A stretch of 24,047 nt of DNA from Naegleria gruberi (lineage: Eukaryota), in NCBI GenBank assembly GCA_000004985.1, contig GG738951.1; one strand, 5' to 3'. A model generated the notes under the pieces. The model was given only the letters and a program-made list of their open reading frames with translations. It ran no database searches and was not told the origin of the DNA. Both the position numbers and the translations under genes were made by a program. This document shows positions 1 to 22,591 of the stretch, one piece after another. Within the stretch, counting starts at the first letter, position 1. Every line of letters starts with the position of its first letter.

Positions 1-906
1 ATTTAACAGGTGATTTAAAATATTATGAAATTGCTAAAAAAGCAACATTAAGTATTTTTAAATATAGAGATTTAAAAACTAATTTAATTGGTAATCATAT
101 AAATATAATGAATGGAGAATGGATACATCGTGAATCAGGTATAGGAGCATCAATTGATTCATATTTTGAATATCTATATAAGGGATTTATTTTATTTAAA
201 GATGAAGAATTATTAAATTTATTTAAAATTCATTATCAATCAATTTTAAAATATGTTTATAAAAATCCATGGTATTCAGATGTTGATATGAAATTTCCAA
301 AAATAACATTTGGATTATATAATTCATTAGCTTCATTTTGGCCAGGTGTACAAGCTTTATATGGTAATTATGAAATTGCTAAAAAGTCAATTATTGCTAT
401 ACATGGTATTTGGAGAAAATATGGAAGTATACCTGAAGGTTTTAATATTTTAATTTCAAAAGCACAAAAAGGTCAATTACCATATCCATTAAGACCTGAA
501 TTAATTGAAAGTATTTATCATTTATTTAAATTTGATGGTTCACGTGATTCTAATTATCTATATATGGCAAGAGATTTTTATACTAGTTTGGAAATTAATA
601 CAAAAACTAAATGTGGATATGCTGTTATTGATAATGTTGAAACTTTAAAATTAAATGATAGAATGGAATCTTTCTTTTTATCTGAAACTTTAAAATATTT
701 ATATTTAATTTTTGATTTTAATAATTTTGTACATTATAATAATCAAACAAATTCAGAAGAATTATTATTCACTTTTAATACTGAAGCACATTTAATTCCT
801 TTAAATTTAAATGCCTATTTAAAAAATATGATCCTTATTTTAATGAAAATAGATTTTTACATGATTTTTCAAAAAAATCAGCAATTTTTAAATAAAATAT
901 TTATTT
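1..906 (+). CDS. Glycoside hydrolase family 47 (class I alpha-1,2-mannosidase / EDEM-like), C-terminal part. Partial at both ends: the frame is open from nt 3 and runs into the N gap.
   Basis: The frame starting at nt 3 has no stop before the gap. Translation carries conserved GH47 motifs: ESGIGASIDSYFEYLYK (the E..E..DSYYEYLLK box), RPELIES (RPE[TL][IV]ES), MESFFLSETLKYLYLIF (ESFFLAETLKYLYLLF) and FNTEAHLIPL (the C-terminal FNTEAHPLP box). Confidence 0.85.
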
Positions 907-2220
907 NNNNNNNNNNNNNNNNNNNNNNNNNNNNNNNNNNNNNNNNNNNNNNNNNNNNNNNNNNNNNNNNNNNNNNNNNNNNNNNNNNNNNNNNNNNNNN
1001 NNNNNNNNNNNNNNNNNNNNNNNNNNNNNNNNNNNNNNNNNNNNNNNNNNNNNNNNNNNNNNNNNNNNNNNNNNNNNNNNNNNNNNNNNNNNNNNNNNNN
1101 NNNNNNNNNNNNNNNNNNNNNNNNNNNNNNNNNNNNNNNNNNNNNNNNNNNNNNNNNNNNNNNNNNNNNNNNNNNNNNNNNNNNNNNNNNNNNNNNNNNN
1201 NNNNNNNNNNNNNNNNNNNNNNNNNNNNNNNNNNNNNNNNNNNNNNNNNNNNNNNNNNNNNNNNNNNNNNNNNNNNNNNNNNNNNNNNNNNNNNNNNNNN
1301 NNNNNNNNNNNNNNNNNNNNNNNNNNNNNNNNNNNNNNNNNNNNNNNNNNNNNNNNNNNNNNNNNNNNNNNNNNNNNNNNNNNNNNNNNNNNNNNNNNNN
1401 NNNNNNNNNNNNNNNNNNNNNNNNNNNNNNNNNNNNNNNNNNNNNNNNNNNNNNNNNNNNNNNNNNNNNNNNNNNNNNNNNNNNNNNNNNNNNNNNNNNN
1501 NNNNNNNNNNNNNNNNNNNNNNNNNNNNNNNNNNNNNNNNNNNNNNNNNNNNNNNNNNNNNNNNNNNNNNNNNNNNNNNNNNNNNNNNNNNNNNNNNNNN
1601 NNNNNNNNNNNNNNNNNNNNNNNNNNNNNNNNNNNNNNNNNNNNNNNNNNNNNNNNNNNNNNNNNNNNNNNNNNNNNNNNNNNNNNNNNNNNNNNNNNNN
1701 NNNNNNNNNNNNNNNNNNNNNNNNNNNNNNNNNNNNNNNNNNNNNNNNNNNNNNNNNNNNNNNNNNNNNNNNNNNNNNNNNNNNNNNNNNNNNNNNNNNN
1801 NNNNNNNNNNNNNNNNNNNNNNNNNNNNNNNNNNNNNNNNNNNNNNNNNNNNNNNNNNNNNNNNNNNNNNNNNNNNNNNNNNNNNNNNNNNNNNNNNNNN
1901 NNNNNNNNNNNNNNNNNNNNNNNNNNNNNNNNNNNNNNNNNNNNNNNNNNNNNNNNNNNNNNNNNNNNNNNNNNNNNNNNNNNNNNNNNNNNNNNNNNNN
2001 NNNNNNNNNNNNNNNNNNNNNNNNNNNNNNNNNNNNNNNNNNNNNNNNNNNNNNNNNNNNNNNNNNNNNNNNNNNNNNNNNNNNNNNNNNNNNNNNNNNN
2101 NNNNNNNNNNNNNNNNNNNNNNNNNNNNNNNNNNNNNNNNNNNNNNNNNNNNNNNNNNNNNNNNNNNNNNNNNNNNNNNNNNNNNNNNNNNNNNNNNNNN
2201 NNNNNNNNNNNNNNNNNNNN
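907..2220. other. Assembly gap (1314 N)
   Basis: Run of n characters. It hides the 3' ends of the convergent GH47 and EML genes. Confidence 1.
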
Positions 2221-4054
2221 TGAAGTAGATCTATTACTTGTAGTAGTAGAAATACCTCTTGGTGATTTTTGATTCATTGAATCTAATAAATTAGCAGATT
2301 GACCACGTGGTGATTTAGGGTTATATAAACCACCACCAATCATACTATCCATTTTAAGAGAAGGTAATGCTGTAGATGTATTTAATTGATCTAATTGATC
2401 ATTATTATCAATTAAATTCCATTGAAATATAGTCAAATCACCACCACCACATGATAATAATTTTGTAATTCTTTCATTTTCAATATTATAATGTATAAAT
2501 TTAACATTTGTAACATGACTACAATGACCAATATAAGAATAACCAAATGGTTTAATAATTGGACATGGATAATGATATAAAGATAACATTGTTGTATCTT
2601 CACCTACTATAATTAATTCATTTTCATAATCAACATGACATGTATTAACATCTGTTCCATTAAAATCTTGTTTCCAAATACCTCTAACTGTCCATCCTAA
2701 TGGACATGTCATTGAATTCCATTCTATATTTTCTATATTTGAACAATTACTTAATTTTTTACTATTTAAATCCCATAATAATATTTCATAATCACCTGAA
2801 TTACTTTTTAAATAATTACCACATTTGGAAATATCTAAATGTGTAATAAATGATGAATGTCCTATTAATTTACCAATATATTTATAATCTCCACTACCAC
2901 TCTTTAAACAATTATATAAATAAATATAATTATCATGACTACCAACTGCTAATAAAGTACCATCATGATTATAAGATAGAGTTGTAATTTCTTCATTTGA
3001 ATCTTTACGTGTATATAATGGTTCTTCTGTAAATGTATAATTTTCTAAATTAAAACCATATATAAATAAATGACCTTCTTTAGAAGTGAATGCAACATGT
3101 TCATTTGAAGGTGAAACACATACACCTCTCAATTCTAATGATGAATTTAATTTTAATAATGAGGCGTGTTTTCTATTTTCACAATTCCATACAATAACTC
3201 TACCATCATCTGAACATGTTACAAATAAAGGTAATTCTTTAAATGTATCTAATCCCCATAATTGTTTTAACATGGTTCCAAAATGTGAAATTAATAACAA
3301 TTCAATTTCACCATTTTCTTTAATTAAATATAAATCACCATTTGCTTTACTAGCATATACATTATTATCATATTTAGAATGTGTTATATTTTTAACAAAT
3401 CCATTTATAGTAATACTTTTATAACATTCAATAAATGAATTATTAAATTTCCAATATTTAACTTGACCATCTTTACCACCACTAATAAAACCATAATTAA
3501 ATTTACTATTTTTATCATATAATGGATATAAAGTAAAAACATTACCATGATGTCCATTTATAGTATTAATTAATTTACCATCTCTAAATAAATAAATAGA
3601 ACCATCTTCACATCCAACATAGGCATCTTGATTTTTCATATTAAAACATAGAGAATGTAAATTTTGTAAAGTACCTTTACTTCCAAATATACCTGATTTA
3701 AATGTTAAATCTTTAGTATTATAAATTTTTAATACTTTTTTACCACAAATATAAATTTGTGAATCATCAGGTGAAAATTGTAAATCAAATATTTCACTTG
3801 ATAAACATTTTGTACTTGCAATTAATTCATTCTTTTTCCAATTATATAATAATATAATAGATGATGTATCATTACCACCTACTGTTACTAATAATTCTCC
3901 TGAATTGGAAAAACTAGTTGCTAATACTCCTCCATTTTTAAAATGTAAATGTGTATCTAATTTAGTAATTGGTTCTTTTATATCATGACTATCCCATATA
4001 TATATCATATCATCTTTACCTATTTGTCCACTTGCAAATATATATTCATTTGGA
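2221..4054 (-). CDS. EMAP-like (EML) microtubule-associated WD/TAPE tandem beta-propeller protein, exon 2. The 3' end is lost in the gap.
   Basis: The continuous minus-strand frame aligns along its length with human EML4. Examples: LLAVGSHDNYIYLY...GHSSFITHLD...SNSGDYEILLWD versus FLAVGSHDNFIYLY...GHSSYITHLDW...SNSGDYEILYWD; YPCPIIKPFGYSYIGHCSHVTNVKF versus YPCSKAKAPSHKYSAHSSHVTNVSF; KSGIFGSKG versus RKQGIFGKYE. The S/T/P/R-rich C-terminal tail runs into the gap. Confidence 0.88.
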
Positions 4055-7584: not shown

Positions 7585-8955
7585 ATGTCACATGATTCAC
7601 AATCTGATCAATTAAATGATCAACAACAACAAGAAGAAGAATATAATGAAGAGGAAGAAGAAGAAGAAGAATTTAATGAAGAAGAAGAAGAAATTAAAAA
7701 AACACTTGATGATGAATTATTAGATAGTGCTATTAATAGAGATTTTAATAGATTAAAATTATTATTAATAGAAAAAGGAGCCAATGCATTCTATAATAAA
7801 AGAATAGAAGGAGTATGGGGAGCCTATGAAGAATATGGAGTAATACATAAAGTATTACTTGGATGGGATGATATGAAAGAACAAATGCAAGCTATAGAAT
7901 TATTATTAAGTAAAGGTGCTAATGTAAATGCTATATATGGTAGTAGTAATTGGAAAGGAAGTGGATCAAGTGGTACAGCCTTTGAAATTGTATTAAGTAA
8001 GAATAATATTGAATTAATCAAATTATTTTTAAAATATGGAGCAGATTCAAATACATGTCAAAAAAGACAAGCACACACTATGAGATATGATGGTTCATCA
8101 TCTTTTCCTTTTTTATATCAAAGTGTTAAATATGGTAATTTAGATTTATTTAAATGTTTATTAGAACATAATGCTAATACTAATTTATTTGCTTTTAATA
8201 GAGGTTCATCTGAATATGGTCCTATTGATGATTTAAAAGAATTACCTTTACATTTAGCATGTAAATTATTTAAATCAATTAATAATATTAATATTAATAA
8301 TAATAATAATATTAATGAATCTTATGATAGTGATGATGAATATAATAATAATAATAATGAATCTAAATCTAAAAATAATTATGAAAAATATAAAGAAATG
8401 ATATTATTATTAATTAAATATAATAGTGATATTAACATGTATGGTAAAACAGTATATCAAATACCAAATGAAAATTATCCTAAAAATATAAATGAAGAAG
8501 AATATAATGAAATATCAGATCCAAGAGGTGATAATTTTATACCACAAACTATAAATATTAAAATACAATATACACCACTACATTTATCAATTATTACAAA
8601 TCAAAATGAAGAATTATTTAATTTATTATTATTTAATGGTGCAAATTCAAATATTAATTTTATTAAAAATAATATTGAAATTTCTACTTTAGATTTATTA
8701 AAAGAATATAATTTAAATTGGAATTTAAATTTTCAATGGTCAATTAAATATCATAAATATTTACCTAATCATTTAAAATTAATTATTAATACTTTACAAT
8801 ATATTTCATATCATTTAAATTGGCCTTTAAATTTAGATACTTTATCTATTATTTATAATTTTTTATGTTTGGATTATTTTTATGAAAATGATTTAAAATT
8901 TATTAAAAATAGACAAGAAGAATATGAAAAATTTAAAAAAACTAATTATTATTAA
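7585..8955 (+). CDS. Ankyrin-repeat protein with an acidic (poly-Glu) N-terminus and an Asn-rich insert
   Basis: Repeated ankyrin-like units are present: LLLIEKGANAFYN, IELLLSKGANVNAIYG, IKLFLKYGADSNTC, KCLLEHNANTNLFAF, LPLHLACKLF, TPLHLSIITNQNEELFNLLLFNGANSNINF. The ATG is in A-rich context, the frame is continuous and ends at a TAA. Confidence 0.65.
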   Translation: MSHDSQSDQLNDQQQQEEEYNEEEEEEEEFNEEEEEIKKTLDDELLDSAINRDFNRLKLLLIEKGANAFYNKRIEGVWGAYEEYGVIHKVLLGWDDMKEQMQAIELLLSKGANVNAIYGSSNWKGSGSSGTAFEIVLSKNNIELIKLFLKYGADSNTCQKRQAHTMRYDGSSSFPFLYQSVKYGNLDLFKCLLEHNANTNLFAFNRGSSEYGPIDDLKELPLHLACKLFKSINNININNNNNINESYDSDDEYNNNNNESKSKNNYEKYKEMILLLIKYNSDINMYGKTVYQIPNENYPKNINEEEYNEISDPRGDNFIPQTINIKIQYTPLHLSIITNQNEELFNLLLFNGANSNINFIKNNIEISTLDLLKEYNLNWNLNFQWSIKYHKYLPNHLKLIINTLQYISYHLNWPLNLDTLSIIYNFLCLDYFYENDLKFIKNRQEEYEKFKKTNYY

Positions 8956-12891: not shown

Positions 12892-13031
12892 GATGGTGAT
12901 GATGCTGAAATGAAGTAAAATTGGCAGTTGATGGAAAAGTTACAAGGTTGATGTAGAATTACTTACCTGGCATTTATTGTGTTTTTTTGATTCGAATTTT
13001 CAGTCGAAAGCCAGTTTTTAGACGAAAAAAA

Positions 13032-13565
13032 ATGTCTTTACAAAATAACAAGGAACAAGGTATCTATTTTGAAAGACGCTGTGATTCTTGCAAGAAATCT
13101 TTACACACAGTATTTTACCAACCAATTTCAAGTGCAAAATTCAAGATTCAAATTAAATGTAACTGTGAAAACTCTGAGTGTAAAAATTTTACTAAGGAAA
13201 AACTTGGATGTTGTTTATGTGATTATAGTTGTGTCAAATCTGAAACGTTGTTGAAACATATTACAAAAGAACATTCCATCAAGTTTCCAAAAGTGTGTTG
13301 TGATAAACATTACACCACAATGGAGGAATACGTCGATCATATCAATTTTAAACATCAAACCAACACAAAGAGTGCAATAGAACATCAACCGTTAAAGAGA
13401 TTATGTTTATCTAAACCAGAAAAACCAGTAAAGCTCAGCTCCTCTGCAAATACATCTTTACAGCATGTCATTACTCCTCAAAATGATACATTGGAGTGCA
13501 AGAATGTCTTTCATTTGATCAAATTCAAACCAGATGTAAATATTTCAAAACTCAACAACCAATAA
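13032..13565 (+). CDS. C2H2 zinc-finger protein (177 aa), divergently oriented from the small Cys-rich gene with only about 60 bp between them
   Basis: The ATG sits in aaaaaaaATG context; the track start at 12987 is TTG. Finger 1, CCLCDYSCVKSETLLKHITKEH, fits C-x2-C-x12-H-x4-H. Finger 2, CCDKHYTTMEEYVDHINFKH, is finger-like. Further Cys clusters occur upstream (CDSCKKSLH, CNCENSECKNF). Confidence 0.45.
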   Translation: MSLQNNKEQGIYFERRCDSCKKSLHTVFYQPISSAKFKIQIKCNCENSECKNFTKEKLGCCLCDYSCVKSETLLKHITKEHSIKFPKVCCDKHYTTMEEYVDHINFKHQTNTKSAIEHQPLKRLCLSKPEKPVKLSSSANTSLQHVITPQNDTLECKNVFHLIKFKPDVNISKLNNQ

Positions 13566-13879: not shown

Positions 13880-16861
13880 TTAAAGTTTTGATTGTTGTTT
13901 GTTGGAATCATTGTTAATAATTTCATGAGCAGCAATTCTTCCATAAACAACACATTCCAATAAACTATTACCAGCCAATCTATTTAAACCATGTAATCCA
14001 CCTGATGCTTCACCTGCAGTATATAAACCTTGAATTGGTTCAACAGTATTATCATTTGCAATTCTTCTTAAAACTCTTGCCTTTTCATCAAATAATAAAC
14101 CACCATGTGTATAGTGAATGGAAGGTGTAATTCTTGAAATATAAATGGTATCATTTAAATTAAATAGAGTTGGGAATAAATTCTTTCCAAAATCATCTAC
14201 AATTGAATTATTTAATTGATATTGATTATAAAAATGATTATAATTTTCAATAGTATTAATTAATTGTTGTAAATTTAAATGTTGTAATGATTCTTGATGA
14301 GCATGTTGTAAATTATTAAATTTCTTAATAAAACCTTTACCAATATAAAAAGATAATAAAGATTCACTAAAAGATTTAGCAACATGATCATTCATAATCA
14401 TATAAGCAGTAGTATGTCCATTTTCAATTTCAGATTTACAATTTTTAAATATCATATCAGAAACATAATCTCTTCTACCTAATTCATTACAAAATCTATT
14501 ACCATTCTCATTAACTATAATACCACCATAAGCACGTAATGCTTCAGCTGCTAAAAATACTGTCATACTTTTAGGATTTAATGGATCAATAAATCCAGTT
14601 GGATGTACTTGAATAGATTCCATATGTATTAATGAGGCTCCTAATTCTTTAACTGCCATTCTAATACCTTCTCCATTAGCAAATTTACCATTAGTAGTTG
14701 GTAATTTTGATAATTGTGGTGCATATTCTTTTAAATATCCTTCTCTATCTGCTGCATATCCACCTGTTGTTAATACAACTGATGATACTTTTAATTCTTT
14801 AACTTGTTGTTCTTTTAATTCTTTTAATTGTTCTGATTGTGATTCTTTTGATTGTTCTTTTGATTCTTGTTCAAGAGTAATATATTTAATACCTGTTACA
14901 ATTGTATTATTATTTTCATCAATTAAAGTTAAAAAACCAATCATTTTAGTACTTGTCATTACAGTAACTCTATCATTTAAATTATTCTTAATATAATTTA
15001 ATAATTTAAAAGTAATTTCAGCACCAACATTCATTGCACGTCCAACTTTAGGTGGAGCAGAACGATGTGTACGTGCCATTGAATGACCACCACATTGTGT
15101 TACTAATTCCATTCCAATACCATGATTTTCTAAAAATTCAATTGCACTTGTTGATTCTTTAACAAGTGTTGAAATTAATTTAGGATTACCTGCTTGTTTA
15201 CCTGATTTAGTAGTATCAGATATAAATAAATCAACTGTATCAGGAATTGATAATCTTTCCTGTGCTTTAGTTAATACTCCATTAATACCTGATGTTGCTT
15301 TAGCACTATTACCACCTGTACGTTCTTCTTTTTCAATTAAATAAACATAACCTCCTAATTCTGCAATTTCAATAGCTGCTGATAATCCTGCAAGTCCACC
15401 TCCAATCACTGCTACTTTTATTGGTGATGATGATGATTGATTAGTTGTAGATGTAGATTCAGTAGTGGTGGTGGATTGTGTAGTAGATTGTTCAACAGTT
15501 GGAGTGTCCATACTTGGTTGATTGGTAGTAGTGGTATCGGATTGTTTTTGATCACTTGTTGGAGTAGTAGTGATAGGTGTAGTAACCTCTTCTTGTTGTT
15601 GTTTAGTAGTAGTAGTAGGAGTGGTGCTAGTAGGAGTAGTTGTTGTTGGTTCTTCTTGTTGTTGTTGTTCAACTTTAGCCTTTGATTCTACTTGTTTGGT
15701 TTCAGCAGTAACTGTAGGGGTTGTTGTTGGAGTACTTGGAGTAGCAGCAGTAGTAGTAGTAGTTTCAGCTTGAGGTGTTGTTGTTGTAGTTGATGTGCTT
15801 GGTTGAGTGGTGGAAGTAGTGGTGGTTGTTGGGTTCAAATTTGGAATTTGTTTTTTATGAATCTTATTTTGGATAAATTCTAAAGCTTGTTCAAATTCAC
15901 TATTTAAATTTGTATAAATTTTAATCCTATCACTATTATTTAATAAAATATTATTTAAATTATTATTATTACTATCAATAATATTATCATCATAATTATA
16001 AAAATAATTAAATTCTTCAAATAATGTAATTGTATTTTGATTAATAGAATTATGAATACTATTATTATCATTTTCATTTAAATTATTTAAATTACAATGT
16101 TTTAATAATGGTAATAAAATAGATCTAGTAGGTAATATATTTGTAATTAATTTATATAATTTTTTAAATAAAATAGATGATGTCTTTTTACCTAATATTT
16201 TATTATAAATAATTGAAATTAATTTATGAATAGATTTATAATCTTTAATTAATTCAATTATTTTATCAATTGTAATCTTTTCATTAATAATTGAATTATT
16301 AATTGGTAATATTGGTGAAAATAAAACTATATTTTCAATATTTTCAATATTATTATTTAATTGTTGTAATTGTTTATAATATAATAAAGTATAAAAAGCA
16401 CCTAATTGATGACCAATTAAACTATATGAATTTAATTTTAATTCATTAACAATAGATTGAATAGAATTCATAATTAAATAATATTGTTCTTTAGAACATG
16501 AACAAGTATTTAAAGTATTATTGTTAGTATTTAAAAAAGATTGACCAATACCAGGTCTATCAAATTTAATTAATCTAATAGAATGTTTTTTAGCTAATTC
16601 ATCTTCATTTAAATGTCCATATGAAAGTGATCCAGGTGTAGGATGTAATTGAATAACTGCATGTCCATTCAAATCACCCAATTCAATATAGGCTATTTTA
16701 GATCCATCCTTTTCAATATATTTTAATTTATTACTAATATTACTATTTAATAATGATTCTGTATGTTTAGGATTTTTATATAAATTAACATTACTTGAAT
16801 ACAATAATGATAAGACTATTGCAATCAAGGCTGTTGTGAGAATAAGTAATTTACTCAACAT
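13880..16861 (-). CDS. 993-aa fusion protein. From N to C: signal peptide or signal anchor; alpha/beta-hydrolase fold domain with the nucleophile Ser replaced by Gln; mucin-like Thr/Pro/Ser/Gln linker; and a soluble FAD-dependent fumarate reductase (OSM1/FRDS, flavocytochrome-c-type flavoprotein).
   Basis: The N-terminus MLSKLLILTTALIAIVLSLLYSS is hydrophobic. HPTPGS and DRPGIGQS match alpha/beta-hydrolase boxes, but the elbow is GHQLG (codon caa at minus-strand 16408-16406). TTTTSTTQPSTSTTTTTPQAETTTTTAATPSTPTTTPT forms the linker. The C-terminal half matches yeast OSM1 closely: VAVIGGGLAGLSAAIE...GGNSAKATSGINGV, GGHSMARTHRS, LPTTNGKFANGEGI, IQVHPTGFIDP, FLAAEALRAYGG, HYTHGG, GLYTAGEASGGLHGLNRLAGNSLLECVVYG. 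Confidence 0.85.
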   Translation of the reverse strand: MLSKLLILTTALIAIVLSLLYSSNVNLYKNPKHTESLLNSNISNKLKYIEKDGSKIAYIELGDLNGHAVIQLHPTPGSLSYGHLNEDELAKKHSIRLIKFDRPGIGQSFLNTNNNTLNTCSCSKEQYYLIMNSIQSIVNELKLNSYSLIGHQLGAFYTLLYYKQLQQLNNNIENIENIVLFSPILPINNSIINEKITIDKIIELIKDYKSIHKLISIIYNKILGKKTSSILFKKLYKLITNILPTRSILLPLLKHCNLNNLNENDNNSIHNSINQNTITLFEEFNYFYNYDDNIIDSNNNNLNNILLNNSDRIKIYTNLNSEFEQALEFIQNKIHKKQIPNLNPTTTTTSTTQPSTSTTTTTPQAETTTTTAATPSTPTTTPTVTAETKQVESKAKVEQQQQEEPTTTTPTSTTPTTTTKQQQEEVTTPITTTPTSDQKQSDTTTTNQPSMDTPTVEQSTTQSTTTTESTSTTNQSSSSPIKVAVIGGGLAGLSAAIEIAELGGYVYLIEKEERTGGNSAKATSGINGVLTKAQERLSIPDTVDLFISDTTKSGKQAGNPKLISTLVKESTSAIEFLENHGIGMELVTQCGGHSMARTHRSAPPKVGRAMNVGAEITFKLLNYIKNNLNDRVTVMTSTKMIGFLTLIDENNNTIVTGIKYITLEQESKEQSKESQSEQLKELKEQQVKELKVSSVVLTTGGYAADREGYLKEYAPQLSKLPTTNGKFANGEGIRMAVKELGASLIHMESIQVHPTGFIDPLNPKSMTVFLAAEALRAYGGIIVNENGNRFCNELGRRDYVSDMIFKNCKSEIENGHTTAYMIMNDHVAKSFSESLLSFYIGKGFIKKFNNLQHAHQESLQHLNLQQLINTIENYNHFYNQYQLNNSIVDDFGKNLFPTLFNLNDTIYISRITPSIHYTHGGLLFDEKARVLRRIANDNTVEPIQGLYTAGEASGGLHGLNRLAGNSLLECVVYGRIAAHEIINNDSNKQQSKL
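15420..15840 (-). repeat. Low-complexity (ACT/ACC/AGT)n-type coding repeat, encoding the Thr/Pro-rich linker of the fusion protein
   Basis: Overlapping ORFs on both strands here are artefacts of the simple-sequence tract. Confidence 0.7.
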
Positions 16862-17152: not shown

Positions 17153-18016
17153 CTATTGTCTTGGTAAAATAGAATCTTTTAAATCTTGATTTTGTAACAT
17201 TGACCATTCTTGATCTGAAAAGATGAATAAATGAGAAGGTAAAGGTTTACCATTTGGTAATTTAACATTGGGTATTCTTAATTCATCAAAGAAAGGATGA
17301 GCTAAAGCATCCATTGGAGTAATTCTACGTTTTGGATCATATTGTAATAATTTTGTAATTAAATCAACACTATTATTCATTTCAATGAAAGGATCAATTT
17401 GTGAACCAGAATTTGAACCATTATTAGCTTGATAATTACGTTGTAAAAATTGAAATCTATCTGCAAAAACTTGATCCCATGGATTTGGTTTAACTTGTGG
17501 AAATTTAAATTCAGTATAATTCTTATTCATTGCTAAAATATCTTGTTTAGAAGGAGCACCTAATACTTTAATAATTTCAACTAATTGATCAACTGAACTT
17601 TCACCTTGAAATAAAGGAGTACCTAACATTAATTCACCCATAACACATCCACATGACCATACATCAACTGAACAAGTATATTTTGTTGATTGAAATATTA
17701 ATTCAGGTGCTCTATAATATCTTGAACAAATATATGATACGTTAGGTTCTCCTTCTTTTAATTGTTTTGCATTTCCAAAATCACATAATTTTAAAATTCC
17801 ACTCACTGGATCTATTAATAAATTTTGTGGTTTTATATCACGATGACAAATACCAAGTGAATGTATATATATCACTGAACGTAATAATTGAAATACAAAT
17901 AATTTAACATAAATACTTGGTACATAGGAATTATGTTTAGCATAATTCATACAAAATCTATAAACTGTATCAGGTACATATTCTAATACTAAATTTAAAT
18001 ATACTTCTTCTGGATC
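17153..18016 (-). CDS. gskA: Glycogen synthase kinase-3, exon 2 (kinase subdomains V-XI and C-terminal tail)
   Basis: [20 protein letters not shown]...[19 protein letters not shown]...[12 protein letters not shown]...[19 protein letters not shown]...[15 protein letters not shown]...[15 protein letters not shown] matches GSK-3beta almost residue for residue. The acceptor ...AAAATAATAG lies at 18017-18020. Confidence 0.9.
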
Positions 18017-18160
18017 CTATTATTTTAAATTGTTTTAAATTGTTTTTTAAATATTATTATAGATATAAATATTATTATTATAAATATTATTATTATTAAA
18101 AATATTAAAATTATTAAAAATATTAAAATTATTAAAAATATTATAAATATAAAAACTTAC

Positions 18161-18787
18161 TCTATCACCTCTTGAATAAAAATAATTTTTCAATTCAACA
18201 ACATTTGGATGTGATAATGTTTTCATTACTTGTAATTCTCTATTTTTAAATCTCTTATCTTGAAGTACTTTCTTAATAGCTACTATATCTCCTGTTTCTT
18301 GTACTTTAGCTAGAAATACAACACCAAAACTACCATTACCAATCACTTTAACAGCACTATAAGAAACTACTTTGCCTTGTCGTGTTGGTGGTGATGTTGT
18401 TGAGGTTGCTGCTGCTGTAGTAGTAGTAGTAGTAGTAGATGAATTATTATTTGGTTGTTGTTGTTGTTGAATAGATGAATTGACTAGGCTAGTGGAAGGT
18501 TGTTGTTTTGAATTGATGGATTTGGTTTTTCTAGTTGGTGATTCATTTCCAGGTTGATTAGTTATATTATTTGTATTATTAGTGGTTGTAGTAGTACTTG
18601 TTGTTGTAGATTTTGATGAAGATTGATAATTATTATAGGATCTATTGGTTTTATCATTATTTCCAATTTGAAGATAATTAAAATTATTAATTAAATTATC
18701 CATATTATTATTGTTAGTAGTATTTGTATTGGAATTTGAATTGTTATTATTATTATTATTATTAATGAAGGAATTATTATTGTACAT
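18161..18787 (-). CDS. gskA: Glycogen synthase kinase-3, exon 1 (poly-Asn/Thr N-terminus, ATP-binding loop, VAIK, HRD upstream region). The true start may be the second Met, MDNLINNF.
   Basis: [67 protein letters not shown] is followed by a GTAAGT donor at minus-strand 18160. The 144-nt intron (18017-18160) contains (aaaatattaaaattatt)n repeats. Phase is preserved: 627 nt plus 864 nt. Confidence 0.9.
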
Positions 18788-22142: not shown

Positions 22143-22591
22143 NNNNNNNNNNNNNNNNNNNNNNNNNNNNNNNNNNNNNNNNNNNNNNNNNNNNNNNNNN
22201 NNNNNNNNNNNNNNNNNNNNNNNNNNNNNNNNNNNNNNNNNNNNNNNNNNNNNNNNNNNNNNNNNNNNNNNNNNNNNNNNNNNNNNNNNNNNNNNNNNNN
22301 NNNNNNNNNNNNNNNNNNNNNNNNNNNNNNNNNNNNNNNNNNNNNNNNNNNNNNNNNNNNNNNNNNNNNNNNNNNNNNNNNNNNNNNNNNNNNNNNNNNN
22401 NNNNNNNNNNNNNNNNNNNNNNNNNNNNNNNNNNNNNNNNNNNNNNNNNNNNNNNNNNNNNNNNNNNNNNNNNNNNNNNNNNNNNNNNNNNNNNNNNNNN
22501 NNNNNNNNNNNNNNNNNNNNNNNNNNNNNNNNNNNNNNNNNNNNNNNNNNNNNNNNNNNNNNNNNNNNNNNNNNNNNNNNNNNNNNNNNNN
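22143..22591. other. Assembly gap (449 N)
   Basis: Run of n characters. Confidence 1.

What the first reader, a model, noticed from the sequence alone, without database searches (positions are those of the whole stretch)
16261..16711. Alpha/beta-hydrolase domain of the fusion protein has Gln in place of the nucleophilic Ser (GHQLG)
The nucleophile-elbow pentapeptide reads G-H-Q-L-G (codon CAA at minus-strand 16408-16406) rather than G-x-S-x-G. The upstream HPTPGS and DRPGIGQS boxes of the fold are retained. This predicts a catalytically dead hydrolase fold. It may have been repurposed as a binding or scaffolding module for the attached fumarate reductase, analogous to other pseudo-enzymes.
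Basis: seen in the sequence. Interest (0 to 1): 0.55.

Follow-up and report, generated by a model that had tools for sequence, protein, structure and literature searches.

The report
Dead hydrolase domain on fumarate reductase
A Naegleria gruberi fumarate reductase carries, between a membrane anchor and the working enzyme, a hydrolase-like domain that has lost its catalytic residues, as it also has in related amoebae, so it is a further example of a "dead enzyme" domain kept for a non-catalytic job.

Summary
The window is a 24,047-bp Naegleria gruberi contig. ORF 13880-16861 (-) encodes the 993-aa protein annotated "fumarate reductase" (XP_002668799.1, D2W4F0). Its parts are an N-terminal hydrophobic anchor, an alpha/beta-hydrolase-like domain, a Thr-rich linker and an Osm1-type soluble fumarate reductase.

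Codon CAA at 16408-16406 encodes Gln152 in G-H-Q-L-G. Three sequence alignments and an AlphaFold model place it at the turn between strand b5 and helix aC, where 101 of 106 relatives have Ser.

It is not a read error. Every Ser codon differs from CAA by at least 2 bases. The syntenic orthologues in Willaertia magna and Naegleria fowleri also read CAA (G-Y-Q-M-G). A fourth fusion, from a metagenome, has Gly.

The catalytic His is also absent, and the strand-b7/Asp region is collapsed. Only the N-terminal half of the fold is conserved (36-45% identity). The reductase keeps all six Osm1 catalytic residues.

The best reading is a catalytically dead hydrolase fold. It was probably inherited together with its membrane anchor and now serves as a non-catalytic, membrane-proximal module. 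That role is inferred, not shown. This is a new member of a known kind (pseudo-hydrolases) in an architecture I did not find described. Interest is modest.

The parts
13880..16861 (-). Complete uninterrupted ORF of 993 aa plus stop codon. It is identical to N. gruberi EFC36055.1 / XP_002668799.1 / UniProt D2W4F0, annotated 'fumarate reductase'.
16796..16858 (-). N-terminal hydrophobic segment (aa 2-22, LSKLLILTTALIAIVLSLLYS). It is a predicted single transmembrane anchor or signal anchor.
   Evidence: The Kyte-Doolittle 19-residue mean is 2.36. Equivalent segments (2.17-2.47) are present in all four fusion proteins (2.09 in the stand-alone relative P0012).
16748..16774 (-). Juxtamembrane motif NPKHTESLL (aa 30-38). 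It is shared, as P-x-x-(N/H)-T-x-x-L, with the stand-alone anchored hydrolases P0012, P0090 and P0010.
   Evidence: In alignment A1 the Pro is nearly invariant.
16301..16729 (-). Conserved N-terminal half of the alpha/beta-hydrolase-like domain (aa 45-187, strands b1-b6, helices aB and aC).
   Evidence: The family HMM aligns aa 51-198. Model pLDDT is mostly above 90 here. Identity to the orthologues is 36-45%.
16628..16645 (-). Oxyanion-loop box HPTPGS (aa 73-78). His73 is conserved in 100/106 relatives. Pro74 stands where 98/106 have Gly.
16538..16561 (-). DRPGIGQS box after strand b4 (aa 101-108). R, G and S are invariant in the family.
16400..16414 (-). Nucleophile-elbow pentapeptide G-H-Q-L-G (aa 150-154).
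16406..16408 (-). CAA codon for Gln152, at the position of the catalytic Ser.
   Evidence: Ser occupies this column in 101/106 relatives. The profile Ser column corresponds to Ser96 of chloroperoxidase L, 1a88.
15848..16300 (-). Degenerate cap and C-terminal half of the hydrolase-like domain (aa 188-338). It is low-complexity and Asn-rich, and no longer matches the family profile.
   Evidence: (pLDDT 51-68 over most of it)
15974..15994 (-). YDDNIID (aa 290-296), the remnant aligned to the catalytic-acid column. The preceding b7 strand ('PVxLWHG') is absent.
   Evidence: The model has no strand here.
15899..15934 (-). SDRIKIYTNLNS (aa 310-321), the last strand and the loop where the catalytic His should be. 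There is no His. Arg312 is aligned to the His column, which is His in 103/106 relatives.
15428..15829 (-). Thr/Ser/Gln/Pro-rich linker (aa 345-478, 58 of 134 residues are Thr).
   Evidence: Identity to the orthologues is 10-26%.
13922..15415 (-). Osm1/flavocytochrome-c-type soluble fumarate reductase flavoprotein domain (aa 483-980). It keeps the catalytic residues H753, E773, R776, R797, H916 and R961.
   Evidence: TIGR01813 scores 370.5 bits against a cut-off of 285.45. PF00890 scores E 1.3e-65. Osm1 (5glg) scores E 1.2e-83. Residues were mapped.

Best explanation
The N-terminal third of this Naegleria gruberi protein is a catalytically dead alpha/beta-hydrolase fold, i.e. a pseudo-enzyme domain. 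The nucleophile is Gln152, the triad His is missing, and the strand and loop that carry the Asp have collapsed. The oxyanion-loop box, the DRPGxGxS box and the G-x-X-x-G elbow, which hold the N-terminal half of the fold together, are retained.

The most likely history is this (inferred). A membrane-anchored stand-alone hydrolase, with its transmembrane segment and juxtamembrane motif, was fused upstream of an Osm1-type soluble fumarate reductase in an ancestor of Naegleria and Willaertia. The fusion gave the reductase a membrane anchor. Hydrolase chemistry then became dispensable and decayed.

What remains of the fold would work as a non-catalytic, membrane-proximal structural or docking module. 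From it the fully competent reductase hangs on a flexible Thr-rich tether. The reductase would reduce fumarate to succinate at a membrane (probably ER or secretory pathway), using reduced flavin as yeast Osm1 does.

Shown here: the sequence, the homology, the positions of the lost residues, conservation across species, and the intact reductase active site. Inferred: loss of activity, membrane insertion and its orientation, the compartment, and the anchoring or docking role.
For: (1) Gln152 sits at the nucleophile position in three sequence alignments and, less independently (its input was alignment A3), in the model. These are phmmer to esterase 5h3h, where GHQLG aligns with GFSMG; the 106-sequence MAFFT alignment, with Ser in 101/106; and a family HMM built without the fusions. 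In the AF2 model Gln152 lies between b5 and aC, with pLDDT above 90.

(2) The family's S/D/H columns map onto Ser96/Asp226/His255 of chloroperoxidase L, 1a88.

(3) At the His column (103/106 His) the window has Arg, and there is no His in residues 271-334. At the Asp column the flanking b7 strand is a gap, and the model has no strand there.

(5) The change is old and real. The CAA Gln codon is present in W. magna and N. fowleri, and a eukaryotic metagenome homologue has GGA (Gly). All four are uninterrupted or annotated fusions. A protein-kinase gene lies directly upstream in all three named species.

(6) Decay is graded. The metagenome protein keeps the Asp and His motifs. W. magna keeps Asp only. 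N. gruberi keeps neither. N. fowleri has also lost the DRPG box.

(7) Constraint falls on part of the fold only. Identity is 36-45% in the N-half, 12-20% in the cap/C-half, 10-26% in the linker and 48-70% in the reductase.

(8) Stand-alone relatives (P0012, and the N-terminally truncated P0010 and P0090) have a hydrophobic N-terminus and the same juxtamembrane motif. P0010 keeps an intact Ser/Asp/His triad. This fits inheritance of anchor and fold as one unit.

(9) The reductase is intact. It matches Osm1 at E 1.2e-83, and the six residues whose mutation cripples Osm1 are all conserved.
Against: - No activity, localisation or interaction data exist for this protein, and I found no paper on it.
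- The AF2 model was built from an alignment of active hydrolases, so it is not independent of the sequence alignment. The cap/C-terminal half is low confidence (pLDDT 51-68).
- An Asp (D291/D292) does align to the acid column, so the acid is not strictly absent.
- Some alpha/beta-fold proteins work without the Ser (PMC11878206), so loss of the triad does not prove loss of every activity.
- Strict retention of Gln in three genera could mean the side chain has a use.
- Membrane orientation cannot be decided from the flanking charges. The ER assignment rests only on analogy with Osm1 (PMC6242907, PMC5638582).
Confidence: 0.6

Rival explanations
1. The domain is a neutral relic. After the fusion only the transmembrane segment matters. 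The hydrolase-like domain has no role of its own and is simply decaying into low-complexity spacer.
For: - The C-terminal half is unrecognisable to the family profile.
- It has 12-20% identity between orthologues, and long Asn or Ser runs are inserted.
- N. fowleri has even lost the DRPG box and scores only 27 bits.
- The linker that follows is equally unconstrained.
Against: - The N-terminal half (b1-b6) keeps 36-45% identity across genera. That is well above the 10-26% of the linker and cap in the same proteins.
- It keeps the fold-defining boxes and is modelled with pLDDT above 90.
- The reading frame is intact in four lineages.
Confidence: 0.22
2. The domain keeps a non-canonical activity or a specific ligand-binding function. 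Examples would be a lipid, flavin or quinone pocket, or a partner-protein site, with Gln152 as a hydrogen-bonding residue. CGI-58/ABHD5, which has Asn at this position, is a precedent.
For: - Gln is identical in three genera, while the neighbouring elbow residues vary (H/Y at -1, L/M at +1).
- The nearest bacterial relatives already vary at this position. Asp in P0008 and Cys in P0009 and P0055 are fused to HTH regulators.
- Pseudo-hydrolases with real functions are known (PMC9026008, PMC11878206).
Against: - The cap and C-terminal half, which normally shape the pocket, are the least conserved part.
- The metagenome homologue has Gly, not Gln.
- With about 40-45% identity, one position that is identical in three species is not significant on its own.
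- No HxxxxD acyltransferase motif is conserved (direct reading).
Confidence: 0.15
3. It is an artefact. This could be a base-call or assembly error at 16406-16408, a gene model that wrongly merges two genes, or a chance G-x-Q-x-G in a region that is not an alpha/beta hydrolase at all.
For: - Pfam finds no hydrolase family in the domain.
- Single-sequence AF2 failed (pLDDT 34.6).
- The contig has two N gaps.
Against: - CAA is at least 2 substitutions from every Ser codon.
- The same codon is seen in two other species' assemblies.
- The ORF is continuous across both domains in N. gruberi, W. magna and the metagenome contig.
- The gaps lie at 907-2220 and 22143-22591, far from the gene.
Confidence: 0.02

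Closest known systems
Saccharomyces cerevisiae Osm1 / Frd1 (soluble FAD-dependent fumarate reductases; PDB 5glg, 5zyn)
   Same: - The C-terminal domain is a full-length match (E 1.2e-83).
- All six catalytic or substrate residues named for Osm1 are conserved (PMC6242907).
- Like Fcc3-type enzymes it passes TIGR01813.
- Osm1 also carries an N-terminal extension that sends one isoform to the ER (PMC5638582).
   Different: Osm1 has only a short targeting sequence. It has no hydrolase-like domain and no long Thr-rich tether. Whether the Naegleria protein is in the ER, or serves Ero1- or Erv-type oxidases, is untested.
CGI-58 / ABHD5 (alpha/beta-hydrolase-fold pseudo-enzyme, co-activator of ATGL)
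   Same: It is an alpha/beta-hydrolase fold in which the Ser nucleophile is replaced by an amide side chain (Asn153 in G-x-N-x-G). It has no hydrolase activity and has been repurposed for protein-protein regulation (PMC9026008).
   Different: CGI-58 retains the His and the acid of the triad and a complete fold, and it is a stand-alone protein. Here the His is gone, the acid region has collapsed, the residue is Gln, and the domain is fused to an active oxidoreductase. No close sequence relationship was seen. It was not among the hits.
Arb2 domain (PF09757) of class II histone deacetylases
   Same: It is an inactive alpha/beta-hydrolase-like domain that lacks the triad. It is fused in one polypeptide to a catalytically active domain of unrelated chemistry and is thought to mediate protein-protein contacts (PMC11878206).
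   Different: It belongs to a different family (no Pfam hit here). It has a different partner enzyme and lies C-terminal rather than N-terminal. It has no membrane anchor.
Active alpha/beta hydrolases of the 9wlv / haloperoxidase / proline-iminopeptidase group (PF00561, PF12697)
   Same: - They are the closest sequence and structure relatives.
- The family profile matches 9wlv at E 1.8e-69 and chloroperoxidase L at 4.4e-28.
- They share the H-G/P-x-P-G-S, D-R-P-G-x-G-x-S and G-x-X-x-G boxes.
   Different: Those proteins have Ser/Asp/His and eight strands. The window protein has Gln, a remnant acid and no His. The model predicts seven strands.
Trypanosomatid NADH-dependent fumarate reductases (multi-domain soluble FRDs)
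   Same: In both, a protist soluble fumarate reductase flavoprotein domain is embedded in a multi-domain polypeptide and targeted to a particular compartment (general knowledge; FRD in glycosomes is mentioned in PMC9512073).
   Different: From my own knowledge, those enzymes carry ApbE-like and cytochrome-b5-reductase-like domains that supply electrons from NADH. The Naegleria protein has neither, so its electron donor is unknown.

Membership tests
Alpha/beta-hydrolase fold superfamily (structural membership) | Central twisted beta-sheet (canonically 8 strands, order 12435678) flanked by helices (PMC11878206) | tested here: met
Alpha/beta-hydrolase fold superfamily (structural membership) | Significant sequence homology to recognised alpha/beta-hydrolase families | tested here: met
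   A direct Pfam scan is negative. An independent family HMM gives E 9.8e-21 (calculated for a search of this one sequence). The relatives carry PF00561, PF12697 and PF12146. The W. magna orthologue has faint PF00561 and PF12146 hits.
Catalytically active Ser/Cys/Asp alpha/beta hydrolases | Nucleophile (Ser, Cys or Asp) at the tight turn between strand b5 and helix aC | tested here: not met
   Gln152 occupies the turn. The turn geometry motif G-x-X-x-G is itself retained.
Catalytically active Ser/Cys/Asp alpha/beta hydrolases | Acidic residue in the loop after strand b7 | tested here: inconclusive
   An Asp of YDDNIID aligns to the acid column (104/106 Asp). However, the b7 strand and the 'WHG' context are a gap, and the model shows no strand there. 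The family HMM does not align this region at all.
Catalytically active Ser/Cys/Asp alpha/beta hydrolases | Histidine in the loop after strand b8 | tested here: not met
   The column is His in 103/106 relatives, and the window has Arg312. There is no His anywhere in residues 271-334. His335 lies at the far end of the last helix.
Catalytically active Ser/Cys/Asp alpha/beta hydrolases | Hydrolytic activity | not testable with these tools
   This needs an enzyme assay or activity-based probe labelling.
Soluble fumarate reductase / flavocytochrome c flavoprotein (TIGR01813; Osm1, Frd1, Fcc3) | Score above the curated family cut-off over the full model | tested here: met
   TIGR01813 scores 370.5 bits against a cut-off of 285.45, over model positions 2-443 of 444. 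PF00890 scores E 1.3e-65.
Soluble fumarate reductase / flavocytochrome c flavoprotein (TIGR01813; Osm1, Frd1, Fcc3) | Six conserved catalytic or substrate residues (Osm1 H281, E301, R304, R326, H435, R477; PMC6242907) | tested here: met
   H753, E773, R776, R797, H916 and R961 align to them.
Soluble fumarate reductase / flavocytochrome c flavoprotein (TIGR01813; Osm1, Frd1, Fcc3) | Fumarate-to-succinate reduction with a reduced flavin or haem donor | not testable with these tools
   This needs an enzyme assay. No haem, cytochrome b5 or NADH-binding domain was detected.
CGI-58/ABHD5-type pseudo-hydrolases | Nucleophile replaced by Asn, with His and acid retained; a stand-alone lipase co-activator | tested here: not met
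   The window has Gln, not Asn. His is lost, and the domain is fused to an oxidoreductase. This is an analogy only (PMC9026008).
Arb2 (PF09757) inactive alpha/beta-hydrolase-like domain | Match to PF09757 | tested here: not met
   There is no Pfam hit at E<=10 for the N-domain.

The most novel reading that the evidence does not exclude
In this reading the dead hydrolase fold is not just a spacer. It would be a dedicated docking or sensing module, with Gln152 lining a retained pocket. It would couple the tethered fumarate reductase to a specific membrane partner or ligand. Candidates are an Ero1/Erv-type sulfhydryl oxidase, a flavin or quinone, or a lipid. Heterolobosean amoebae, including the pathogen N. 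fowleri, would then have a previously undescribed way of wiring an anaerobic electron sink to a membrane compartment.
Probability: 0.15. Interest if true: 0.6.

Novelty: new member of a known kind. Interest (0 to 1): 0.35.

Why it matters
Pseudo-enzymes of the alpha/beta-hydrolase fold are well known (CGI-58, Arb2, neuroligins), so the principle is not new.

What is new is the combination of three things:
- an anchor, a dead hydrolase, a tether and an Osm1-type fumarate reductase in one protein;
- its conservation across Naegleria and Willaertia;
- the visible gradient of decay among the four known copies.

It matters in three modest ways.
- It corrects the bare annotation "fumarate reductase" for D2W4F0 and its orthologues.
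- It offers a natural series for studying how a fold degenerates once catalysis is dispensable.
- It points to a membrane-tethered soluble-type fumarate reductase in amoebae whose anaerobic capacities are debated. N. gruberi trophozoites require oxygen and have no rhodoquinone (PMC6205838). The enzyme has no human counterpart in the pathogen N. fowleri.

Tried and rejected
- Direct Pfam scans of the whole protein and of the N-domain alone found no hydrolase family. NCBIfam listed only flavoprotein families among its best 25 matches.
- phmmer against PDB gave only a marginal hit (5h3h, E 0.094).
- The word-indexed protein search found nothing with the single N-domain. It again found nothing with an alignment of the four fusion N-domains. 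It did not even return the query proteins, probably because low-complexity words swamped the candidate list. That third search was wasted.
- Single-sequence AF2 failed (pLDDT 34.6).
- The afdb50 fold library was unavailable, so I could not look for further fusions among AlphaFold DB entries.
- A neighbour-joining tree of the N-half lost N. fowleri and the metagenome protein to the coverage filter. It showed only that N. gruberi and W. magna are mutual nearest neighbours. Orthology therefore rests on architecture and synteny.
- My first guess was that the window was Dictyostelium, because of its 24.5% G+C and poly-Asn/Thr runs. The exact-match look-up to N. gruberi and the synteny disproved this.
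- I considered a CGI-58-like HxxxxD acyltransferase motif. 'HLNEDE' is not conserved in W. magna ('HPQEEA'), so I rejected it.
- I considered dN/dS, but at 40-45% amino-acid identity the synonymous sites would be saturated, so I did not compute it.
- Literature searches found no paper describing this fusion.
Full report
**What the window is**

The window is very AT-rich (24.5% G+C outside two N gaps at 907-2220 and 22143-22591). An exact-sequence look-up shows that ORF 13880-16861 on the minus strand encodes, without interruption, the 993-aa Naegleria gruberi NEG-M protein EFC36055.1 / XP_002668799.1 / UniProt D2W4F0. The protein is annotated "fumarate reductase", and its only recorded contig is 24,047 bp long, the same length as the window.

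**Checking the observation**

The minus strand reads ggt cat caa tta ggt at 16414-16400. This is G150-H151-Q152-L153-G154, with CAA at 16408-16406 as reported. HPTPGS (aa 73-78) and DRPGIGQS (aa 101-108) lie upstream.

**Is the region really an alpha/beta hydrolase?**

Direct evidence is weak.
- Pfam finds no hydrolase family, whether the whole protein or the N-domain alone is scanned.
- The best PDB sequence hit is marginal (esterase 5h3h, E 0.094). It does, however, already align LIGHQLG with LLGFSMG.
- Single-sequence AlphaFold failed.

Transitive evidence is strong.
- An exhaustive HMMER scan of 1.84 billion representatives gave 99 hits at E<=1e-3.
- A profile of these hits recovered 512 proteins at E<=1e-5. 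The precomputed domains of the 120 best listed are PF00561, PF12697 and PF12146.
- A profile of 106 aligned sequences hits the solved hydrolase 9wlv at E 1.8e-69, chloroperoxidase L (1a88) at 4.4e-28 and proline iminopeptidase (1azw) at 5.5e-22.
- A family HMM built after removing all fusion proteins scores the N. gruberi domain at E 9.8e-21 (for a search of this one sequence) over aa 51-198.
- With the alignment, AlphaFold2 gives pLDDT 78.6 and pTM 0.81.
- Foldseek returns 1098 PDB matches at E<=1e-3.

**Is Gln152 at the nucleophile position?**

- In the 106-sequence alignment its column is Ser in 101 sequences, Gln in 2, Gly in 2 and Thr in 1. The flanking glycines are 103/106 and 106/106.
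- The independent HMM aligns 'lGvSgGGPYALA' with 'iGhQlGAfYtL'.
- The profile's Ser, Asp and His columns fall on Ser96, Asp226 and His255 of 1a88, counted from the printed alignment. From my own knowledge, these are that enzyme's triad.
- In the model, strand b5 is residues 146-151 and helix aC is 153-168. Gln152 is therefore the single residue of the tight turn, in a block with pLDDT above 90.
- This matches the definition of the nucleophile elbow in PMC11878206.
- One caveat applies. The model was guided by the same family alignment, so it corroborates the sequence evidence rather than testing it independently.

**The rest of the triad**

- The His column (103/106 His) holds Arg312. There is no His between residues 271 and 334. 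His335 sits at the far end of the last helix.
- The acid column (104/106 Asp) is matched by an Asp of YDDNIID. However, the b7 strand that should precede it ('PVxLWHG') is a gap, and the model predicts no strand there. The sheet therefore has seven strands instead of eight.
- The family HMM does not align anything beyond residue 198.
- Pro74 also stands where 98/106 relatives have the Gly of the 'HG' oxyanion loop. Ser-bearing relatives such as P0010 share this Pro.

**Not an error**

- All six Ser codons differ from CAA at two or three positions.
- The orthologues in Willaertia magna (KAL9643942.1, 863 aa, G-Y-Q-M-G) and Naegleria fowleri (XP_044566353.1, 1124 aa, G-Y-Q-M-G) both carry CAA in independent assemblies.
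- A fourth fusion protein, from a metagenome contig whose neighbour has an IBR domain (so a eukaryote), reads GGA, i.e. G-Y-G-I-G.
- In W. magna and N. fowleri a protein-kinase gene lies directly upstream on the same strand. The window has the same arrangement, with a GSK3-like kinase at 17153-18787.
- The proteins are therefore syntenic orthologues, and the Ser-to-Gln change predates the Naegleria/Willaertia split. None of the four known fusions has a Ser.

**A gradient of decay**

| Protein | Nucleophile position | Asp motif | His motif | Other |
|---|---|---|---|---|
| Metagenome protein | Gly | kept ('SNADNISAP') | kept ('GVGHF') | aligns to the whole family model |
| W. magna | Gln | kept ('LHGKNDRVNP') | lost ('GLDEL') | |
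| N. gruberi | Gln | remnant Asp only | lost | C-terminal half unrecognisable |
| N. fowleri | Gln | uncertain | uncertain | DRPGxGxS box lost ('DRSNLYLQ'); long Ser/Thr insertions; 27 bits |

Identity of N. gruberi to W. magna, N. fowleri and the metagenome protein, region by region:

| Region | W. magna | N. fowleri | Metagenome protein |
|---|---|---|---|
| Strands b1-b6 | 45% | 40% | 36% |
| Cap and C-terminal half | 12% | 20% | 16% |
| Linker | 16% | 26% | 10% |
| Reductase | 70% | 70% | 48% |

Part of the fold is thus under constraint, while the catalytic half is not.

**The rest of the protein**

- Residues 2-22 form a strongly hydrophobic segment (Kyte-Doolittle 19-mer mean 2.36). Equivalents are present in all four fusions and in the stand-alone relative P0012 from the testate amoeba Pyxidicula.
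- A juxtamembrane motif P-x-x-(N/H)-T-x-x-L follows the segment. It is shared by the fusions and by the stand-alone relatives P0012, P0090 and P0010. This suggests that anchor and hydrolase fold were inherited as one unit.
- Residues 345-478 form a linker in which 58 of 134 residues are Thr.
- Residues 483-980 are a soluble fumarate reductase. TIGR01813 scores 370.5 bits against a cut-off of 285.45. Yeast Osm1 (5glg) matches at E 1.2e-83 over its full length.
- The six residues whose mutation to alanine significantly reduced Osm1 activity (H281, E301, R304, R326, H435, R477; PMC6242907) correspond to H753, E773, R776, R797, H916 and R961.
- No haem, cytochrome b5 or NADH-binding domain is present.

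**Most likely mechanism**

Shown here:
- the N-domain is a homologue of active Ser hydrolases;
- it lacks the nucleophile and the His and has a collapsed acid region;
- this state is conserved in related genera;
- the attached reductase looks fully competent.

Inferred:
- the domain has no hydrolase activity;
- a membrane-anchored hydrolase was fused upstream of an Osm1-type reductase in a heterolobosean ancestor, giving the reductase a membrane anchor;
- catalysis then decayed, while the N-terminal half of the fold was kept as a membrane-proximal structural or docking module, from which the reductase hangs on a flexible tether.

By analogy with Osm1, the enzyme could act as a flavin-dependent electron sink at a membrane compartment. 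Osm1 has an ER-targeted isoform that can accept electrons from Ero1's FAD, and an intermembrane-space form that serves Erv1 (PMC6242907; PMC5638582). The orientation of the anchor cannot be decided from the flanking charges, and the compartment is unknown.

I put about 0.85 on 'catalytically dead alpha/beta-hydrolase fold' and 0.6 on the whole statement including the anchoring role.

**Rival explanations**

- A functionless relic (0.22). The decay of the C-half favours it. The conserved N-half and the intact frames in four lineages weigh against it.
- A retained ligand-binding or non-canonical function with Gln152 as a working residue (0.15). The invariance of Gln in three genera and the CGI-58 precedent (Asn at this position; PMC9026008) favour it. 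The Gly in the fourth homologue and the poorly conserved cap weigh against it.
- An artefact (0.02). This is excluded as described above.

**Comparison with what is known**

Functionally the domain resembles other pseudo-hydrolases. Examples are CGI-58/ABHD5 and, most closely in architecture, the Arb2 domain, an inactive alpha/beta-hydrolase-like domain fused to an active histone deacetylase (PMC11878206). It belongs to neither family: the residue differs, the triad remnants differ, and there is no Pfam match.

By descent it belongs to the PF00561/PF12697 group that includes 9wlv, the haloperoxidases and the proline iminopeptidases. It fails two of the three catalytic-triad criteria, and the third is inconclusive.

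The C-terminal domain is a bona fide member of the Osm1/Fcc3 soluble fumarate reductase family.

I found no paper describing this fusion. [quoted passage not shown]

**Verdict**

It is a new member of a known kind, a pseudo-enzyme domain of the alpha/beta-hydrolase fold. The domain architecture appears undescribed, and the four copies form an instructive series of decay. Interest is modest (0.35). It would rise only if the dead fold proved to be a specific docking or sensing module for the reductase.

Noticed in passing
window 17153-18787 (-); L002 2288-3855; L003 1925-3697: A protein-kinase gene lies directly upstream of the fusion gene on the same strand in N. gruberi, W. magna and N. fowleri. 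In the window it is split into two ORFs by a short AT-rich intron at about 17951-18046, and it has a GSK3-like '[13 protein letters not shown]' loop. A Glyco_hydro_47 gene precedes the kinase in the other two species. Gene order is therefore conserved across genera.
   Followed up: partly
proteins P0008, P0009, P0055, P0036, P0061, P0028, P0073: Some of the nearest non-eukaryotic relatives of the N-domain are roughly 450-615-aa proteins. In them a LuxR-type HTH regulator region precedes the same hydrolase fold. Their nucleophile position varies: Asp in P0008 (GHDAG), Cys in P0009 and P0055 (GYCGG, AYCGG), Gly in P0073, and Ser in the others. They may be ligand-sensing transcription factors built on a hydrolase fold.
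   Followed up: no
protein P0004 (Achlya hypogyna OQR94369.1, 872 aa): This oomycete protein consists of three tandem copies of this hydrolase domain. Each copy has Ser at the elbow, but the first small residue is unusual (AQSAG, GGSAG, AQSAG).
   Followed up: no
window 907-2220 and 22143-22591: There are two runs of N (assembly gaps). The first cuts an EML-like double beta-propeller (WD40) gene on the minus strand (about 2221-4008; PF23414 E 4.1e-95). As a result, the long 'ORFs' listed at 108-2228 (+) and 901-4008 (-) run through N.
   Followed up: partly
window 15428-15829 (-), and the antisense or out-of-frame ORFs 15418-15672 (-) and 15437-15685 (+): The linker is 43% Thr (58 of 134 residues) plus Ser, Gln and Pro. 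It looks mucin-like and would be a candidate O-glycosylated stalk if luminal. The 82-84-aa ORFs listed over it in other frames are low-complexity by-products, not genes.
   Followed up: partly
window 16640-16642 (-) (Pro74): The oxyanion-loop 'HG' dipeptide reads 'HP' in the Naegleria/Willaertia fusions and in a few stand-alone relatives with an intact Ser (P0010, P0090); P0012, which has Gly at the nucleophile position, shares it. In the alignment, 98 of 106 sequences have Gly there. This seems to be a subfamily trait rather than part of the inactivation.
   Followed up: partly
window 16613-16615 (-) (His83) and homologues: A His about 10 residues after the HPxPGS box ('GH', 'RH', 'IH', 'SH', 'CH') is conserved in all four fusions and in the closest relatives (P0008, P0009, P0010, P0012, P0090). 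It is not conserved in the wider family consensus. Its role is unknown.
   Followed up: no
window 7585-8955 (+); 12987-13565 (+): The first ORF is an ankyrin-repeat protein (PF00023 E 5.5e-14). The second is a 192-aa Cys/His-rich ORF just downstream of the fusion gene on the opposite strand, with zinc-finger-like C..C...H...H spacing and no Pfam hit.
   Followed up: no
linker regions of the four fusion proteins (for example Met448 in the window protein, near 15518-15520 (-)): Each fusion has at least one Met in the linker upstream of the reductase domain. An internal start could in principle yield a free, unanchored reductase isoform, as the two start codons of yeast OSM1 do. About this many Met residues are expected by chance, so this is only an idea.
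   Followed up: no
tools: The word-indexed protein search returned no hit, not even the query's own database entry, when queried with these low-complexity-rich amoeba sequences. The exhaustive representative search did find them. Negative results from the indexed search on such proteins should not be trusted.
   Followed up: yes
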